Made by a program: the position numbers and the translations under genes
NCBI GenBank assembly: GCA_013334245.1
Contig: JAAXXZ010000002.1
Location: 21,166 to 85,165, forward strand
DNA: 64,000 nucleotides
Direction: 5' to 3'
DNA from: Candidatus Moraniibacteriota bacterium
GTDB lineage: Bacteria > Patescibacteriota > Minisyncoccia > Moranbacterales > UBA1568
Shown here: positions 14,399-52,052 of the stretch, piece after piece
Position numbering within the stretch: position 1 is the stretch's first letter
Layout of the letters: each line of letters starts with the position of its first letter
Notes under the pieces: generated by a model
What the model saw: the letters and a program-made list of their open reading frames with translations, nothing else
Database searches by the model: none
What the model was told of the DNA's origin: nothing

Positions 14399-14430
14399 CC
14401 ACCAGTCTAACGACTCGTGGCGGTTTTTCA
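14399..14430 (+). terminator. Rho-independent terminator
   Basis: gccaccagtctaacgactcgtggcggttttt. Confidence 0.6.
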
Positions 14431-14493
14431 TTTCATCGGTGACGGGCTATACTGGAATCATCGAAAAACAGTCAATCATAAACGGATACGGAT

Positions 14494-15924
14494 ATGAAAA
14501 ACACCAAGATTGTCACGACTATCGGCCCGGCATCGGAATCCAAAGAGATGCTCCGGGCGCTCGCGGAGGCCGGAATGAACGTCGTCCGTCTCAACTTCTC
14601 GCACAACGAACATGCGTGGCATCGCGATGTCATAAACCGTGTCCGGGAGATATCGCAGGAGCTGAATCAGCCGATAGGCATACTGGCGGATCTGCAGGGA
14701 CCCCGCATCCGCATCGGGAACGATGCGGAAGTCGCGGTAGCGGCTGGACAGTCGGTCCGTGTCAGCGATATCGGACATAAGGAGACGCTTTCCGCTTCGG
14801 ATCTTGCGACCGTCTTCCTCGATATAGCCGGCATATCCGATCCGCTCGAGGCGGGACATCAGGTGCTCATCGAGGACGGTACGATCCGACTCTCCGTCAC
14901 GGGCCGGGAGGAAAGGTGTGCCATCGCGACGGTGGAGACCGATGGACTGATACGGCCTCGCAAGGGCGTGAATCTGCCTGATTCCAAACTCGATCTGCCG
15001 ATTCTTTCCGAAAAGGACCGAAAAGACCTGTCGTTCGTCCTTAAGGAAGGAGTCGATTTCGTCGGTCTTTCGTTTGTCGGGTCGGCCCAAGACATCGAGA
15101 GCGCCCGTGAAGTCATGCGGGCCGAGCTGCCCGAAGGGGCGCGTCTGCCGGATATCGTTTCCAAGATCGAGCGCAAGGAGGCGATCAAGAACATCGACGC
15201 GATCATCAAGGCGACGGATGCGGTCATGGTGGCTCGCGGCGACCTCGGTATCGAAATGCCGGAGTCCGAGGTGACACTTCTGCAAAAGGATATCATCCGC
15301 CGAAGCCTTATGGCGGTGAAGCCGGTCATAGTAGCGACGCAGATGATGAAAAGTATGACGGAACAGCCGATCCCGACACGCGCCGAGGTGAGCGATGTGA
15401 CGAATGCGGTCGTGGATCATGCGGATGCCGTGATGCTTTCCGAAGAGTCGGCTATGGGCAAGTATCCTGCGGAGACCGTTTCCATGATGCGCGAAATCAT
15501 CACAAGGACCGAAGAGTCGCCGTTTGACGACGTGTATGACGCCTTGGACCTGAATATCCATTCCGAATACGCCACATTGATCCGGAGCGTGTACGAGCTG
15601 GCCAAGAGTTTCGAGACCAAGGCGATCCTGCTGCTTTCCATGAGTGGATTCACCGCCAAGCTCGCATCCCATTTCCGACCGGATACGGGTATCTTGGTCG
15701 CGACGAACGACCGTCGAACCTATGATCGCATGGCGCTTGTCTGGGGTGTGCGCCCGTACCTGTTCGATGGGGACAAGGATCTCGACAGCTTTATCGACAA
15801 GATGGTCGATTCGGCCAAGGAAGACGGAATCCTCGCGGCCGGTGATCAGACGGTCGTATTCCTCGGCCGCGTGCCCGGCAACCGCGATATGATGCGCCTT
15901 GTCGGAATCCGGGAAATCGGTTAA
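14494..15924 (+). CDS. pyk: Pyruvate kinase
   Basis: MKNTKIVTTIGPASESKEMLRALAEAGMNVVRLNFSHNEH..., the canonical PK N-terminus. Also MVARGDLGIEMP and the C-terminal regulatory domain. Confidence 0.92.
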   Translation: MKNTKIVTTIGPASESKEMLRALAEAGMNVVRLNFSHNEHAWHRDVINRVREISQELNQPIGILADLQGPRIRIGNDAEVAVAAGQSVRVSDIGHKETLSASDLATVFLDIAGISDPLEAGHQVLIEDGTIRLSVTGREERCAIATVETDGLIRPRKGVNLPDSKLDLPILSEKDRKDLSFVLKEGVDFVGLSFVGSAQDIESAREVMRAELPEGARLPDIVSKIERKEAIKNIDAIIKATDAVMVARGDLGIEMPESEVTLLQKDIIRRSLMAVKPVIVATQMMKSMTEQPIPTRAEVSDVTNAVVDHADAVMLSEESAMGKYPAETVSMMREIITRTEESPFDDVYDALDLNIHSEYATLIRSVYELAKSFETKAILLLSMSGFTAKLASHFRPDTGILVATNDRRTYDRMALVWGVRPYLFDGDKDLDSFIDKMVDSAKEDGILAAGDQTVVFLGRVPGNRDMMRLVGIREIG

Positions 15925-15933
15925 TGGATCGGT

Positions 15934-16860
15934 ATGGAAATGGAATTCGGAGACGCTTCATCGGGAGAGGCACGGGAACAGGAGCGAAGTCGAAGGAGAC
16001 GTGTTTTTCTCGACTCTTGCGCACAGCGACTTCAGACGCTCGAACAGGACGGGGTGTTTCCGAGCGATTATATCGAGGCTCGGTTTGCGGCGGCAAAACT
16101 TTCATCTGGTGATTTCAAGAATCCAGAGGCCGAAGGCGAGTCGTTCGCGAGTCTTGGCGTGAAAGAACGGAAACGGTTTCTCAGCGCGATCGACACGTTG
16201 GTCGAAACCGTCCGTCCTGCGATTGTGAGGATAACAGGGAGGTTGGACGGGCTGGAGCTGAAGAAACTTTCTGGAATAATCTGGGGAGAAGCCTTACCGG
16301 TCAGCGTACATGATATCCGGAAATATCTTGAGCGGCCGTGGGAGGAGTTTCGGGATGCCGTGCGTTGCTGGAAAGAAGATCAGCTCTCTCTGCTTTTTGC
16401 AGTCGAAAATCCCGATTTGGACAGGCTTACCAGCGCCTATGGAGAGATGTTCGCGTGGAAGGACTCGTTATCGGATTCGCATGACGGATTAGATGAAGAT
16501 GACCTTACAACACCTCCCTCGGTCCGTATGTCGGAGGACGGATTGGAAAAACTCTTCTCGTTCGCCGAGGATCGACTGCTACGGAAGGCGGACGATTTTC
16601 GCGGACGGATAGAGGATATATTGGAGCTGAAGGAATCCGAAATTCTGCTCCTGCCGGAATTCGAAGAGTCGCTGTATGCGGAATACAGGAAGCTGAGTGA
16701 CAAGATGGATACCTTTCATGAGGATTCGGCGAAAGTGCGAAAGTGGTTCAGAATACTGGATCAGCTGACGGAAGATTCCCGATGGGATGACGTATTCAAG
16801 GCATTCGATCGGGCGATCGCGAGGGCTGCTCGACGCGGTTCGGGAGAAGAGCCTGTTTAG
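15934..16860 (+). CDS. Hypothetical acidic protein
   Basis: 308-aa ORF directly after pyk (10-nt gap). It is Glu/Asp-rich and helical. Confidence 0.5.
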   Translation: MEMEFGDASSGEAREQERSRRRRVFLDSCAQRLQTLEQDGVFPSDYIEARFAAAKLSSGDFKNPEAEGESFASLGVKERKRFLSAIDTLVETVRPAIVRITGRLDGLELKKLSGIIWGEALPVSVHDIRKYLERPWEEFRDAVRCWKEDQLSLLFAVENPDLDRLTSAYGEMFAWKDSLSDSHDGLDEDDLTTPPSVRMSEDGLEKLFSFAEDRLLRKADDFRGRIEDILELKESEILLLPEFEESLYAEYRKLSDKMDTFHEDSAKVRKWFRILDQLTEDSRWDDVFKAFDRAIARAARRGSGEEPV

Positions 16861-16974
16861 GAGTCTTGCCGCGGGTAGAAAACCTGCTCTTGCTCGACGA
16901 GGAAAAATACGATAGGCTGTCTTTCTGGGGAGTCAGGGTATTTTGTTCGAAAAGCGCTTTTCTCCGGTGTAATT

Positions 16975-16989
16975 GGAGAGGTGGCCGAG
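16975..16989 (+). repeat. Direct duplicate of tRNA-Ser 5' end (ggagaggtggccgag)
   Basis: Exact 15-nt match to the first 15 nt of tRNA-Ser at 17142. It is followed by hairpins (ccctgta..tacaggg, cccgttcg..cgaacggg), not by a tRNA body. Confidence 0.7.
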
Positions 16990-17141
16990 CCCTGTATCGT
17001 ACGGTACAGGGCCGAGTGGTTGCCCGTTCGTCACAGCGAACGGGTCCGCGCACTCCGCAAGGCGGAGATGTCGCAGAAAGGTGCACGCCTGTCCGAATTC
17101 AGAAGTCGTCAGTTGTTCGTTGTCAGTCGTCAGTTACTATT

Positions 17142-17228
17142 GGAGAGGTGGCCGAGTGGTTGAAGGCGCGCGCTTGGAAAGCGCGTTAGGGGCAACTCTA
17201 CGCAGGTTCGAATCCTGTCCTCTCCGCC
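17142..17228 (+). tRNA. tRNA-Ser (anticodon GGA), class II with long variable arm
   Basis: Acceptor GGAGAGG/CCTCTCC, D-arm GCCGAGTGGTTGAAGGC, anticodon stem CGCGC/GCGCG with loop TTGGAAA (GGA), long variable arm, T-arm CAGGTTCGAATCCTG, discriminator G. No encoded CCA. Confidence 0.85.
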
Positions 17229-17255
17229 TTCGCTACGCTGAAGCGTAGCTACGGC

Positions 17256-17543
17256 GTGACACAGTCCGCCGTAGAAACGCGAAAGCGAGGTTCGCAAGAG
17301 ATACACGATATGTATTACGTGTATAGTCTCAAATGCAAGGACGGGTATTATGTCGGGTGCACCGACGATTTGAAGGAACGCCTGAGCCGGCACCAGAACG
17401 GGTATGTTCCGGCGACCAAGAACCGTCTTCCGGTCGAATTGGATTTTTACGTCGCGATCCAAGAGAAATACAAGGCATTTGAATTCGAGAAATATCTCAA
17501 GTCCGGATCTGGTAGGGCATTCGTAATGAAGCATCTTCTTTAG
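17256..17543 (+). CDS. GIY-YIG nuclease family protein (small, tRNA-adjacent)
   Basis: YVYSLKCKDGYYVGCTDDLKERLSRHQ is a GIY-YIG motif. The ATG at 17310 (MYYVYSL) is an alternative, more typical start. A terminator hairpin follows at 17547-17578. Confidence 0.8.
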   Translation: MTQSAVETRKRGSQEIHDMYYVYSLKCKDGYYVGCTDDLKERLSRHQNGYVPATKNRLPVELDFYVAIQEKYKAFEFEKYLKSGSGRAFVMKHLL

Positions 17544-17688
17544 AAATACGGCTCCCCTTAACGGGGAGTCGTATTTATTCGGTATTTGTGCAAGGATAGG
17601 ATTCGAAAGCCGGACCGTCAGAAGGCGGGAGGCGGGGTCGCGACCCCGAACGAGGTCTTCCGAGACCTAGCGTTCGGGAGTTGTGACA

Positions 17689-17706
17689 GAATCCTGTCCT
17701 CTCCGC
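17689..17706 (+). repeat. Direct duplicate of tRNA-Ser 3' end (gaatcctgtcctctccgc)
   Basis: Exact 18-nt match to tRNA-Ser nt 17209-17226. It lies 463 nt downstream of the tRNA, bracketing the GIY-YIG gene. Confidence 0.7.
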
Positions 17707-51245: not shown

Positions 51246-51608
51246 ATGAAGTATTTTGTTTATCTTCTGCAGAGCGAAAAAGATAAGCGTTTTTATATCG
51301 GTTCGACATCGGATCTTGAAAAAAGACTGACGTACCATAATCGCGGTTCGAACAAGTCGACACGGCATAGGAGACCGTTGAAGCTTGTACACGTCGAGGA
51401 GTACGATGAGAAGTCGGATGCGACGAAACGAGAATTTCTTCTGAAAAGTCCGAAAGGTTTTTTGGAAAAGAAGAGAATTATAGAAGATGTACGAAATTCC
51501 GGCGAACCTCAAACAAACGGGTTCCCTTCGGGTGTGGCAGAGCAGGAGAAAGGAGTTTCGTTTGATGAGAATGGTGATGTCTTGAAAGAGAATGATATTC
51601 CGGTGTAG
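51246..51608 (+). CDS. GIY-YIG nuclease family protein (tRNA-adjacent; stop codon lies inside tRNA-Asn 5' end)
   Basis: MKYFVYLLQSEKDKRFYIGSTSDLEKRLTYHN is a GIY-YIG motif. It is a paralog of the 17256 ORF. Its TAG stop is at 51606-51608, within the tRNA acceptor/D region. Confidence 0.8.
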   Translation: MKYFVYLLQSEKDKRFYIGSTSDLEKRLTYHNRGSNKSTRHRRPLKLVHVEEYDEKSDATKREFLLKSPKGFLEKKRIIEDVRNSGEPQTNGFPSGVAEQEKGVSFDENGDVLKENDIPV

Positions 51609-51671
51609 CTCAGCGGTAGAGCAGGGGACTGTTAATCCCTTGGTCGCAGGTTCGAATCCTGCCGCCGGAGC
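51599..51671 (+). tRNA. tRNA-Asn (anticodon GUU)
   Basis: Acceptor TCCGGTG/CGCCGGA, D-arm GCTCAGCGGTAGAGC, anticodon stem GGGGA/TCCCT with loop CTGTTAA (GTT), T-arm GCAGGTTCGAATCCTGC, discriminator G. A terminator hairpin follows (51681-51706). Confidence 0.85.
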
Positions 51672-51756
51672 CGACAAATGCAAGGCCACCCATTCGGGTG
51701 GCTTTTGCGTTTGCTTCGGCTCCGAGCGGAGCGAGTGAACGGTTTCACTCGCGTCA

Positions 51757-52052
51757 GGATTCGAAAGGCGGAGCGTCGTTCGGTCAGCAGACCGGACAGC
51801 GAGCCGGGGTCGAGGAATTATCCCGCGACGGCGGGATAATATTTGTGACCGAATCCGCCGCCGGATATTCAGATGTGCTTCCGTCAGGATGAGAACGCCG
51901 GAGCGTCTTTTGCCAGCAGGCAAAAGCGCTTGTCACGTCGCTCACGAACGACGTGATGAAACGGTGCCCAGCCCGAGGGGCGCGACGGCGCACCGAGAGG
52001 CGAGTCACGTCATTCGCGAACGACGTGGCGAGGGAGCATCCTGCCGCCGGAA
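51757..52052 (+). repeat. Two degenerate tandem ~130-nt units each ending in a tRNA-Asn 3'-end-like segment (aatcc(t)gccgccgga)
   Basis: The units begin cgtcaggat..gaa..gccggagcgtc (51757 and 51886). tRNA-3'-like matches are at 51851-51865 (gaatccgccgccgga) and 52038-52051 (atcctgccgccgga, exact 14 nt). Confidence 0.5.

What the first reader, a model, noticed from the sequence alone, without database searches (positions are those of the whole stretch)
16975..17706. tRNA-Ser(GGA) with GIY-YIG nuclease gene, bracketed by exact duplicates of the tRNA 5' end (15 nt) and 3' end (18 nt)
ggagaggtggccgag occurs at 16975 and again as the first 15 nt of the intact tRNA at 17142. gaatcctgtcctctccgc occurs at the tRNA 3' end (17209-17226) and again at 17689, after the GIY-YIG ORF and its terminator. 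The upstream partial copy runs into two strong hairpins, not a tRNA body. This pattern is the classic att-site scar of an element that integrated into a tRNA gene and carried a replacement tRNA segment. Here the cargo is only a 77-95-aa GIY-YIG nuclease, about 460 bp. That suggests a minimal GIY-YIG homing-type element that targets tRNA genes.
Basis: seen in the sequence. Interest (0 to 1): 0.72.

Follow-up and report, generated by a model that had tools for sequence, protein, structure and literature searches.

The report
Tiny nuclease cassette nested in tRNA-Ser
A gene for a 77-amino-acid DNA-cutting enzyme, preceded by a small hairpin module, sits directly behind a serine tRNA gene and is flanked by leftover copies of the tRNA's two ends; about 90 related loci show it belongs to a widespread family, not found described in the searched literature, of miniature selfish cassettes that colonise tRNA genes while keeping them intact.

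Summary
Both repeats are exact and not chance, with small coordinate corrections. The window comes from a Candidatus Moranbacteria (CPR) genome.

The 77-aa ORF (17310-17543) is a catalytically intact minimal GIY-YIG nuclease. In 64 of 70 homologous loci with enough upstream sequence, a co-oriented tRNA (Ser of any anticodon, Trp, or once Asp) ends 66-396 nt upstream. A conserved ~70-nt hairpin module always lies between the tRNA and the ORF. One hairpin of that module copies the last 5-8 nt of the neighbouring tRNA.

A strain 99% identical in the flanks has this tRNA without the cassette. Between the window and a second relative, the cassette's synonymous divergence is 4-7 times lower than that of the flanking genes.

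The bracket is composite. The 5' partial copy is the scar of a second, related kind of GIY-YIG cassette that splits tRNA genes in a loop. The 3' partial copy sits next to a ~95-nt "tail" element that also occurs without any nuclease gene, including at this window's tRNA-Asn.

Best reading: a selfish, homing-type tRNA-nested cassette family. The mechanism is inferred, not shown. I found no description in the searched literature.

The parts
16972..16989 (+). 5' partial tRNA copy: 3 leader nt plus tRNA-Ser nt 1-15. Exact direct repeat of 17139-17156.
   Evidence: The same piece is present with 1 mismatch in L001 and exactly in L081, L083 and L084.
16990..17009 (+). 20-nt palindromic mini-insert (CCCTGTATCGTACGGTACAG) in the D-arm of the partial copy, flanked by a duplicated GGCCGAG.
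   Evidence: inverted repeat I6. Absent from L001, present in L081 and L083. Analogous CCC...CAG inserts occur in L005, L057 and L022.
17010..17022 (+). Continuation of the partial copy: tRNA nt 9-21 (GGCCGAGTGGTTG).
   Evidence: repeat D4
17023..17067 (+). Double hairpin: CCCGTTCG-TCACAG-CGAACGGG at 17023-17044 and CTCCGC-AAG-GCGGAG at 17053-17067. It occupies the position that the DH double hairpin holds in type-2 GIY-YIG cassettes.
   Evidence: architecture of L206, L081, L210, L214, L216, L208, L022. The same hairpins lie upstream of the tRNA-like gene in L085.
17076..17089 (+). Degenerate copy of tRNA nt 20-32 (GAAAGGTGCACGCC). This is the end of the 5' scar, with the break at the anticodon loop.
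   Evidence: L001 has GAAAGGCGCGCGCC, and an 11-nt exact match to the tRNA appears.
17090..17141 (+). Leader of the intact tRNA, presumed to hold its promoter. It belongs to the block that is 95-100% identical to L001.
   Evidence: 17085-17141 is 94.7% identical against 76-81% in the flanking genes. The promoter function is inferred.
17142..17228 (+). Intact tRNA-Ser(GGA). Ends ...CCTCTCC-G73-CC and is followed by TTCG; A76 is not encoded.
17229..17294 (+). Conserved hairpin module: junction TTCG; H1 17232-17249; H2 17252-17271 (CGGCG-T-GAC/ACA/GTC-CGCCG); H3 GCGAAAGCG 17278-17287. The 3' strand of H2 repeats the tRNA end TCCGCC.
   Evidence: compensatory changes; H2 paired in 100% of cells; covariance model R1 scores 89.3 bits at 17218-17294 and is the only significant hit in the window. 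RNA fold z = -4.1; the H2 type tracks the tRNA type.
17310..17543 (+). Type-1 minimal GIY-YIG nuclease gene, 77 aa, of the UPF0213/Slx1-like stand-alone kind.
   Evidence: PDB 1ZG2, E=1e-5. Y14, G16, R24, H28 and E60 invariant, Y5 nearly so; dN/dS 0.02-0.17.
17552..17568 (+). Terminator-like hairpin directly after the ORF.
   Evidence: palindromic stem; the scan called it on the minus strand. On the + strand the stem is followed by a T-rich stretch. 97% conserved in L001, which holds a second copy.
17593..17688 (+). Tail element: AGGATAGGATTCGAAAGCCGGA ... GTTGTGACA. It starts with an inverted copy of the T-loop and T-stem and ends in GTGAC next to the 3' scar.
   Evidence: (I4). The same family lies at the window's tRNA-Asn and in L001 and L074.
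17689..17706 (+). 3' partial tRNA copy: T-loop G57 through C74. Exact direct repeat of 17210-17227, followed by an ancestral-type trailer (AGTGAAAGG).
   Evidence: The trailer resembles those after the cassette-free tRNA in L083 (CCGCC|AGAAAGGA) and L085 (CCGC|AACGAAAG).

Best explanation
The locus is a serine tRNA gene colonised by miniature selfish cassettes built around minimal GIY-YIG nucleases.

The live element (type 1) consists of the tRNA's 3' end, the junction TTCG, a ~70-nt hairpin module and a 77-aa nuclease gene. It sits directly after C75 of the tRNA and is probably transcribed from the tRNA promoter.

Proposed mechanism (inferred):
- The nuclease nicks or breaks a cassette-free copy of the same or a similar tRNA gene.
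- The break is repaired from a cassette-bearing copy.
- The duplicated tRNA segments serve as portable homology arms: the tRNA body on the left and the displaced 3' end on the right.
- The tRNA is therefore regenerated and the host is not harmed.

Hairpin H2 mirrors the top of the acceptor stem plus G73-CC of whichever tRNA the cassette occupies. It is therefore a cis element tied to target identity: a target mimic or operator, or a guide.

The 5' partial tRNA copy is the scar of a sister cassette type (type 2). That type enters a tRNA loop, duplicates the tRNA's 5' part and carries a double hairpin; its ORF has been lost here.

The 3' partial copy is the displaced native 3' end. It lies behind a ~95-nt tail element that can also insert at T-loops on its own.

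Shown here: anatomy, linkage, polymorphism, discordant divergence, hairpin-tRNA covariation. Inferred: cleavage, target, repair route, co-transcription.
For: 1. Linkage. 64 of 70 homologous genomic loci with at least 460 nt upstream have a co-oriented tRNA ending 66-396 nt before the ORF. With the window the counts are 53 Ser of all anticodons, 11 Trp or UCA, and 1 Asp. The six exceptions still carry ...CCGCC|TTCG fragments. Among 80 unrelated tRNA-Ser genes with the same 25-nt 3' end, only 1 is followed by CTTCG and a downstream GIY-YIG gene.

2. The module is part of the unit. Model R1 hits nearly every locus between the tRNA and the ORF, or next to tRNA-end copies around the cassette. It finds one significant site in the 64-kb window.

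3. Polymorphism among relatives.
- L083 is 99.0% identical to the window over 14420-17210. It diverges exactly in the T-loop and has the tRNA followed by CCGCC|AGAAAGG, without module or ORF in the ~100 nt before the contig ends.
- L132 also lacks type 1.
- L081 has type 1 plus an intact type-2 gene.
- L001 has the window's arrangement.

4. Recent exchange. Between the window and L001 the cassette has dS 0.17, against 1.19 for pyk and 0.66 for orf308. Nucleotide identity is 95-100% against 76-81%.

5. Scars recur elsewhere.
- 3' end copies lie downstream in L001, L003, L020, L025, L060, L062, L067, L075, L050, L061 and L077.
- 5' copies with CCC-hairpins lie upstream in L001, L005, L062, L057, L022, L081 and L083.

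6. Type-2 genes in L206-L217, L081, L132 and L022 usually end 3-5 nt before a full tRNA. They are preceded by an exact 5' part of that tRNA, broken in the D, anticodon or T loop and followed by a double hairpin.

7. H2 tracks the tRNA. 45 of 53 Ser loci have the Ser type. 9 of 11 Trp loci have the Trp type, and one more matches its own variant. The single Asp locus matches. There is one cross-type case. Rare tRNA-end variants (CGTC in L011, TGCC in L080) are mirrored with compensation. The proteins do not cluster by tRNA type.

8. The nuclease is intact and under purifying selection.

9. Distribution is patchy and crosses phyla: CPR, Bacteroidota and Smithella. One paper predicts that Patescibacteria donated GIY-YIG genes to other bacteria (PMC12455944).
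Against: - There are no biochemical data. Cleavage, target site and strand are unknown.
- A 77-aa protein holds only the catalytic domain. Sequence-specific recognition of a tRNA gene is hard to picture without a partner or a nucleic-acid guide.
- Most type-1 loci (about 80%) show no downstream 3' scar, so the homology-arm idea applies to a minority, or the scars decay quickly.
- Between the window and L081 the cassette dS (1.24) equals the pyk dS (1.25). This indicates long vertical residence there.
- Strong purifying selection and about 80% amino-acid identity across CPR would also fit a host function.
- The tail and 3' scar unit exists without any nuclease gene. The 18-nt repeat could therefore have been made by another agent.
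- The regenerated full tRNA should remain a target. How the occupied allele escapes cutting is unexplained.
- L083's contig ends about 100 nt after its tRNA, and its downstream sequence differs from the window's. It is an empty type-1 site but not a clean isogenic empty allele.
Confidence: 0.6

Rival explanations
1. Miniature integrative elements moved in trans by a site-specific recombinase. The 18-nt repeat running from the T-loop to the tRNA 3' end would be an attL/attR pair. The module and the tail would be the arms of attP. The GIY-YIG would be cargo or a helper, not the agent of insertion.
For: - Direct repeats that start in the T-loop and run to the tRNA 3' end are the classic footprint of tRNA-targeting integrases (established knowledge).
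- The tail + repeat unit occurs without any ORF at the window's tRNA-Asn.
- The same unit occurs as at least 3 tandem ~175-nt copies after tRNA-Trp in L074, which looks like tandem integration.
- The junction GTGAC|(C/A)GAATCC is the same in six instances.
Against: - There is no recombinase in the 479-bp unit.
- None was found among the 13 ORFs tested around both tRNAs.
- The GIY-YIG/tRNA linkage holds in about 80% of loci that have no repeat or tail.
- Type-2 breakpoints fall in three different tRNA loops, unlike a recombinase with a fixed core.
- The block shared by the window and L081 is exactly tRNA + module + ORF, without the tail.
Confidence: 0.18
2. A host (domesticated) function. The small GIY-YIG would be co-transcribed with tRNA-Ser or tRNA-Trp and act on nucleic acid linked to that tRNA, for example in processing or repair. 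The hairpins would be RNA processing or stability signals. The partial tRNA copies would be incidental products of recombination at tRNA genes.
For: - Gene order and orientation are very constant.
- dN/dS is 0.02-0.17.
- Divergence between the window and L081 looks vertical.
- H2 looks like an acceptor-stem minihelix with the trailer paired, and in 26 of 42 cases it reads ...CCGCC-A, like a CCA end.
- The module folds well as RNA.
- Some prokaryotic Slx1-like GIY-YIG domains are fused to a TrmH-like tRNA methyltransferase (PMC1564403).
Against: - Presence and absence differ between near-identical strains.
- One genome can carry several copies at different tRNAs: L061 and L062 lie on one contig.
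- dS is discordantly low between the window and L001.
- The family is scattered across phyla.
- Decayed, ORF-less scars are common.
- Modules are amplified in tandem.
Confidence: 0.12
3. Chance or assembly artefact. The repeats would be random matches or chimeric MAG assembly at a repeated tRNA.
For: - The window is from a metagenome-assembled genome.
- Several related contigs break at this tRNA (L083, L084, L003 and others).
Against: - The repeats are far beyond chance.
- The same arrangement was assembled independently in L001. Its parts were assembled independently in L081, L082, L083, L084 and L132, from different samples and assemblers.
Confidence: 0.02

Closest known systems
Free-standing GIY-YIG homing endonucleases of T-even phages, especially SegB in the tRNA gene region
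   Same: A GIY-YIG nuclease gene sits among or next to tRNA genes. [quoted passage not shown] It spreads by break repair with co-conversion of flanks.
   Different: Seg proteins are about 200+ aa and carry a DNA-binding domain. This protein is 77 aa and holds the catalytic core only. It has no PHROG match and no relative in viral contigs. Its hosts are cellular: CPR, Bacteroidota and Smithella. It carries a conserved hairpin module that mirrors the tRNA end, and it duplicates tRNA segments.
tRNA-targeting integrative elements (phage- or island-type att sites made by tyrosine integrases)
   Same: A direct repeat of the tRNA 3' end, from the T-loop to the terminus, flanks the insert. The tRNA is regenerated by an element-borne copy. 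The region next to the tRNA is variable between strains.
   Different: There is no integrase. The insert is only 479 bp, or about 175 bp for the ORF-less tail units. A sister type duplicates the 5' part instead and breaks in any of three loops.
UPF0213 / YhbQ / prokaryotic Slx1-like stand-alone GIY-YIG proteins
   Same: Single-domain proteins of about 80-100 aa. The best solved relatives are BH0048 (1ZG2, E=1e-5) and EF2693 (1YWL). They were described as the minimal form of the domain (PMC1564403).
   Different: No function or genomic behaviour was reported for that group in the literature searched. No NCBIfam model matches. The strict tRNA linkage and hairpin module are properties of this clade. 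Whether they hold for the wider family was not tested.
IS200/IS605 (guide-target pairing) and REP/RAYT systems
   Same: A small nuclease gene is accompanied by hairpins. A short element-borne sequence is complementary to the flanking target (here GGCGGA against the tRNA end TCCGCC). That sequence changes when the target changes, while the protein does not sort by target. ORF-less hairpin derivatives exist.
   Different: The enzyme is GIY-YIG, not HUH/Y1. No single-strand transposition has been shown. The complementary sequence is itself locked in a hairpin with a second copy of the target.
I-TevI operator mimic (autorepression by a homing-site look-alike)
   Same: A copy of the presumed target lies between the promoter and the nuclease start. 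From my own knowledge, I-TevI binds such an operator.
   Different: Here the copy is a perfect hairpin, often with one bulged base. That argues for a folded RNA or single strand rather than a duplex operator. No binding data exist.

Membership tests
GIY-YIG nuclease superfamily (Pfam PF01541) | Profile match above the curated threshold | tested here: met
   48.1 bits against a cut-off of 22.6, E=1.5e-12, residues 19-85 of the 95-aa reading
GIY-YIG nuclease superfamily (Pfam PF01541) | Catalytic residues: Tyr of GIY, Tyr and Gly of YIG, Arg, His/Tyr, Glu | tested here: met
   Y14, G16, R24, H28 and E60 are invariant and Y5 is at least 90% conserved in 33 type-1 and type-2 sequences
GIY-YIG nuclease superfamily (Pfam PF01541) | Alpha/beta GIY-YIG fold | not tested
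   No structure was predicted. There is only sequence similarity to solved UPF0213 proteins.
UPF0213 / Slx1-like stand-alone GIY-YIG | Single catalytic domain without auxiliary domains, and sequence similarity to family members | tested here: met
   77 aa; 1ZG2 E=1e-5 and 1YWL E=0.07. The similarity is weak and no NCBIfam model matches.
Free-standing homing endonuclease gene | Presence/absence polymorphism at the same site in related genomes | tested here: met
   Type 1 is present in the window, L001 and L081. It is absent after the same tRNA in L083 (99% identical flanks) and in L132.
Free-standing homing endonuclease gene | Cassette less diverged than its flanks (recent transfer or co-conversion) | tested here: inconclusive
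   Window vs L001: dS 0.17 against 0.66-1.19, which meets the criterion. Window vs L081: dS 1.24 against 1.25, which does not.
Free-standing homing endonuclease gene | Cleaves the cassette-free allele and spares the occupied one | not testable with these tools
   Needs purified protein or an in vivo assay
Free-standing homing endonuclease gene | Separate DNA-binding domain that reads a long target (as in I-TevI and Seg) | tested here: not met
   The 77-aa protein is covered end to end by the catalytic domain. There is no PHROG homing-endonuclease match for type 1.
Integrase-mediated tRNA-integrating element | Direct repeat of a tRNA segment flanking the insert | tested here: met
   18-nt exact repeat at 17210-17227 and 17689-17706
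Integrase-mediated tRNA-integrating element | Tyrosine or serine recombinase gene in the element | tested here: not met
   The only ORF with family support between the repeats is the GIY-YIG. None of the 13 neighbouring ORFs tested is a recombinase. The rest of the genome was not examined.
IS200/IS605-type single-strand transposon | HUH (Y1) transposase | tested here: not met
   The protein is GIY-YIG
IS200/IS605-type single-strand transposon | Element-borne guide complementary to the flanking target, varying with the target | tested here: inconclusive
   The H2 5' strand is complementary to the tRNA end and tracks it. The same data fit a mimic or a duplicated target.
Any described RNA family (Rfam 15) | Covariance-model match for the module, the 5' copy or the tail | tested here: not met
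   Only tRNA passes. The rest are sub-threshold chance hits.

The most novel reading that the evidence does not exclude
Target choice would be encoded in nucleic acid, not in the protein. Under this reading the 77-aa GIY-YIG is a structure-specific cutter. Hairpin H2 (GGCG-N-GAC / GTC-CGCC) acts as a guide, or a guide/decoy pair, that base-pairs with the last 6-8 nt of a tRNA gene or transcript. This would make the cassette a re-programmable, guide-directed mobile element of under 350 bp, following an IS200/IS605-like logic with an unrelated nuclease. The switches between Ser, Trp and Asp tRNAs would then be single base-pair guide changes.
Probability: 0.15. Interest if true: 0.9.

Novelty: new variant of a known kind. 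Interest (0 to 1): 0.7.

Why it matters
If correct, this is among the smallest self-contained selfish units in cellular genomes. It is a 77-aa nuclease plus a ~70-nt hairpin module that lives off a tRNA gene's promoter, sequence conservation and homology.

It would matter in four ways:
- It gives a biological role to part of the large, uncharacterised family of minimal GIY-YIG (UPF0213/Slx1-like) proteins.
- It explains partial tRNA copies, tRNA-adjacent strain variation and contig breaks in CPR genomes. This is useful for annotation and binning.
- It extends to cells the GIY-YIG/tRNA association recently described for phage SegB.
- The hairpin that mirrors each tRNA's acceptor end poses a directly testable question: can a catalytic-core-only nuclease be aimed by a short cis hairpin? 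If so, that would interest both mobile-element biology and tool development.

Tried and rejected
1. The upstream copy as a second, odd tRNA or other known RNA. Rfam gives nothing.
2. The module or tail as a known RNA family. Nothing passes.
3. A phage origin. There is no relative in 2.9 million viral contigs and no PHROG match for type 1.
4. An exact search for the 3' scar plus flank in metagenomes found nothing. The broader 25-mer search returned mostly unrelated bacteria. I used it as a background control, and it also yielded L132.
5. A look-up of the exact 378-aa neighbouring protein found nothing on record.
6. Nucleases sorting by tRNA type. They do not.
7. An integrase near either tRNA. 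None was found among the ORFs tested.
8. L085 as a clean empty site. Rejected: its tRNA-Ser is a degenerate tRNA-like gene whose anticodon and variable arms are replaced by a tetraloop hairpin.
9. One fixed secondary structure for the module. H1 and the long P2 helix both show compensatory changes and exclude each other. This may reflect tandem copies of one hairpin rather than a switch, so I make no claim.
10. Pairing of the tail with the T-loop copy. It is conserved but invariant, so it is uninformative.
Full report
**1. Observation**

- ATTGGAGAGGTGGCCGAG (3 leader nt plus tRNA nt 1-15) occurs at 16972-16989 and 17139-17156.
- GAATCCTGTCCTCTCCGC occurs at 17210-17227 and 17689-17706.
- Shuffles of the window expect 0.11 and 0.03 matches, even with mismatches allowed.
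- ARAGORN and Rfam call one tRNA-Ser(GGA) at 17142-17228.
- The ORF is a GIY-YIG domain protein. Its homologues are almost all 77 aa, which fixes the start at 17310.
- A third repeat was missed: GGCCGAGTGGTTG at 17010-17022 equals 17150-17162.

The upstream copy therefore reads, in order:
- tRNA nt 1-15;
- a 20-nt palindrome;
- tRNA nt 9-21;
- two hairpins;
- a degenerate copy of nt 20-32.

One search finds an identical protein named as coming from a Candidatus Moranbacteria MAG, so the window is from a Moranbacteria (CPR/Patescibacteria) genome.

**2. The nuclease-tRNA linkage is general**

A scan of one genome per species returned over 535 relatives, of which the best 80 loci were kept (61-95% amino-acid identity). 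They come from CPR lineages and also from Bacteroidota such as Niastella, Chitinophaga and Saprospiraceae.
- Ten loci begin less than 460 nt before the ORF and cannot be judged.
- Of the other 70, 64 have a co-oriented tRNA ending 66-396 nt upstream.
- Including the window, the tRNAs are 53 Ser (anticodons GGA, CGA, TGA, GCT), 11 Trp or UCA, and 1 Asp.
- With roughly 45 tRNA genes per megabase, a figure from my own knowledge, fewer than one locus would be expected by chance.
- The six exceptions keep a short ...CCGCC|TTCG fragment.

As a control, I examined 80 metagenomic tRNA-Ser genes sharing the same 25-nt 3' end. Only one was followed by CTTCG and a downstream GIY-YIG gene.

**3. A conserved hairpin module belongs to the unit**

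Every type-1 locus has, directly after ...G73-C-C, the tetranucleotide TTCG and GC-rich hairpins: H1, H2, and often a partial H1 repeat containing GCGAAGGCG.
- In a 26-sequence alignment H2 is paired in 100% of cells, with compensatory changes.
- H1 and an alternative long helix also show many compensatory changes.
- A covariance model of the module finds one significant site in the 64-kb window (17218-17294, 89 bits).
- In nearly all related loci its sites lie between the tRNA and the ORF, or next to tRNA-end copies around the cassette.
- No Rfam family matches.
- The window's module folds well as RNA, with z = -4.1.

**4. H2 mirrors the tRNA end**

The 3' strand of H2 repeats the tRNA's last acceptor bases plus G73-C-C, and its 5' strand is the complement.
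- Ser loci: tRNA ...TCCGCC, H2 GGCG(T)GAC...GTCCGCC.
- Trp loci: ...CCCGCC, with GGCG(T)GGC...GCCCGCC.
- The Asp locus: ...GACCGCC, with GGCGGTC...GACCGCC.
- Rare tRNA-end variants are mirrored with compensation: CGTC in L011 and TGCC in L080.
- Counts: 45 of 53 Ser, 9 of 11 Trp plus one own-variant, 1 of 1 Asp, and one cross-type case.
- In 26 of 42 cases the next base is A, so the strand reads like ...CCGCCA.
- The proteins do not sort by tRNA type. Each Trp-linked protein other than the near-duplicate pair L047/L048 has a Ser-linked or tRNA-unassigned protein as best match, at 67-78% identity.

The match is therefore a property of the cis element. It is either re-made at each target switch or selected. 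No single explanation is established for it.

**5. Evidence for mobility: strain polymorphism**

The pyk-linked tRNA-Ser(GGA) locus differs among relatives.
- L001 has the window's arrangement.
- L081 lacks the 308-aa ORF and has the 5' scar. Then come a tRNA copy (nt 1-69) carrying a 35-nt double hairpin in the T-loop, an 87-aa type-2 GIY-YIG, a full tRNA, the module and the 77-aa gene. It has no tail and no 3' scar.
- L083 is 99.0% identical to the window over 14420-17210 and diverges exactly in the T-loop. It then has the double hairpin, a 45-nt ORF-less remnant and a second full tRNA. That tRNA is followed by CCGCC|AGAAAGGATTTTG: CCA is encoded, and there is no module or type-1 ORF before the contig ends about 100 nt later.
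- L132 has type 2 but not type 1.
- The flank of the window's 3' scar (CCGC|AGTGAAAGG) resembles the native trailers of L083 and L085.

**6. Evidence for mobility: discordant divergence**

Between the window and L001:
- tRNA 100% identical, leader 94.7%, ORF 94.9%;
- pyk 75.9% and the 308-aa ORF 80.8%;
- synonymous divergence 0.17 for the cassette, against 1.19 and 0.66 for the two flanking genes.

This argues for recent exchange rather than protein constraint alone. Between the window and L081 the cassette dS (1.24) equals the pyk dS (1.25), so there it has been inherited vertically. dN/dS is 0.02-0.17.

**7. The bracket is composite: 5' side**

Type-2 GIY-YIG genes (83-99 aa; 185 proteins at E<=1e-10) usually end 3-5 nt before a co-oriented full tRNA (Ser or Asp). 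One gene overlaps its tRNA and one ends about 60 nt before it. An exact copy of that tRNA's 5' part precedes each gene. The copy breaks in a loop:
- T-loop: L206, L081, L132, L210;
- anticodon loop: L216 (Smithella), L208;
- D-loop: L214, L022.

After the break come a ~35-nt double hairpin, then 5-8 further tRNA bases, then the ORF.

In L022 the 5' fragment (GGAGAGT...) pairs with the acceptor strand of a 3' tRNA half further downstream (...ACTCTCC) that still carries the type-1 module and gene. An older tRNA was thus split there by an element that brought its own tRNA.

The window's 16972-17089 has this architecture without an ORF. L001, L005, L062 and L057 do as well.

**8. The bracket is composite: 3' side**

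The 18-nt copy is preceded by GTGAC and a ~95-nt tail (AGGAT..GAAAG(C/G)CGGA...TTGTGAC). The same tail, followed by a tRNA 3'-end copy, occurs in three other settings:
- after the window's tRNA-Asn, with no ORF (51756-51865);
- in L001;
- as at least 3 tandem ~175-nt units after tRNA-Trp in L074.

Downstream 3' copies also occur in about ten other type-1 loci. Among tRNAs with no neighbouring tRNA, 6 of 49 GIY-linked ones have such a copy (10 nt or more), against 1 of 25 others. That single case is the L074 array.

**9. The protein**

- The best solved relatives are UPF0213 proteins: 1ZG2 at E=1e-5 and 1YWL.
- Catalytic residues are conserved.
- No NCBIfam model matches.
- The family has 280 representatives at E<=1e-10 and 3378 at E<=1e-3 among 1.84 billion clusters at 50% identity.

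**10. Interpretation**

The best-supported reading is a family of selfish, homing-type mini-cassettes nested in tRNA genes.
- Type 1 sits after C75.
- Type 2 sits in a loop and re-creates the tRNA downstream.

The duplicated tRNA pieces would let the tRNA gene itself supply both homology arms for break repair. That makes the cassettes independent of the flanks and harmless to the host. This step, the cleavage itself and co-transcription from the tRNA promoter are inferred.

Rivals:
- a recombinase acting in trans, favoured by the tail arrays;
- a host function, favoured by conservation and the vertical pair;
- artefact, excluded by independent assemblies.

**11. Literature**

Searches for GIY-YIG combined with tRNA-Ser, tRNA adjacency, CPR or Patescibacteria, and COG2827 found no description of this arrangement. 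The 2006 superfamily survey does not mention it.

The closest published parallel is phage SegB, a GIY-YIG homing endonuclease frequently associated with tRNA genes (PMC13096335). One study predicts that Patescibacteria donated GIY-YIG genes to other bacteria (PMC12455944). The library is incomplete, so prior description elsewhere cannot be excluded.

Noticed in passing
window 51599-51865: The window's other tRNA, tRNA-Asn(GTT) at 51599-51672, has its own displaced 3' end copy (CGAATCC-GCCGCCGGA, 51850-51865). It is preceded by GTGAC and a ~95-nt tail (51756-51849) of the same family as at tRNA-Ser. There is a terminator hairpin but no ORF in between. A TTCG + hairpin remnant (TTCGGCTCCGAGCGGAGC) also lies there.
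   Followed up: partly
L074 3118-3710 (contig CAZWMQ010000002): tRNA-Trp is followed by at least 3 tandem ~175-nt ORF-less units. Each unit is the tRNA nt 56-75 copy, an A/T-rich terminator-like stretch and a tail ending TTGTGAC. This looks like iterated integration or amplification of a miniature element at the T-loop. A type-1 cassette sits on the next tRNA (UCA anticodon).
   Followed up: partly
L081 4403-4797; L206-L217; L132 1810-2190; L022 3318-3685: A second family of mini GIY-YIG genes (83-99 aa) lies immediately upstream of tRNA-Ser or tRNA-Asp. Each is preceded by an exact 5' part of that tRNA, broken in the D, anticodon or T loop, and by a conserved double hairpin (CCCGGGCATTCGCCGGG CGCCCCGCGGATGCGGGGCG).
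   Followed up: partly
L216/L217 (Smithella, 100-1850): In a Smithella genome (outside CPR) the type-2 cassette sits between the seryl-tRNA synthetase gene and tRNA-Ser(TGA). The tRNA 5' copy is broken in the anticodon loop.
   Followed up: no
L085 5251-5322 and 5695-7782: A more distant relative has, at the same pyk-linked site, a 70-nt tRNA-Ser-like gene (Rfam 41.6 bits; not called by ARAGORN). A GAAA-tetraloop hairpin replaces its anticodon and variable arms. A BglI/SfiI-like restriction-modification system with an HTH gene follows downstream.
   Followed up: no
window 16990-17009; L005 3636-3655; L081 4226-4245: 20-nt CCC...CAG palindromes are inserted in the D-arm of the 5' tRNA scars, with short duplications of the flanking bases (GGCCGAG in the window). 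The insert is present in the window, L081 and L083 but absent in L001. This is a possible nano-insertion or template-switch product.
   Followed up: partly
L001 4524-5873 and 5060-5095: To the right of its 3' scar, L001 carries two extra ORFs (143 and 246 aa, no family assigned) that the window lacks. It also holds a second 97%-identical copy of the post-GIY-YIG terminator hairpin. The region next to this tRNA is a variable hotspot.
   Followed up: no
P0011 (119 aa, Moranbacteria): One close homologue (90% identity over the matched stretches) has a 42-aa insertion inside the GIY-YIG ORF, between the KAFE and FEKY motifs. This is either an interrupted gene or a nested insertion.
   Followed up: no
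loci L015, L023, L032, L045, L021 (intergenic tRNA to ORF): The H1-H2 module is tandemly amplified 2-4 times or more in some loci. Extra modules with tRNA-end copies lie downstream of the ORF in L061, L062, L072 and L077.
   Followed up: partly
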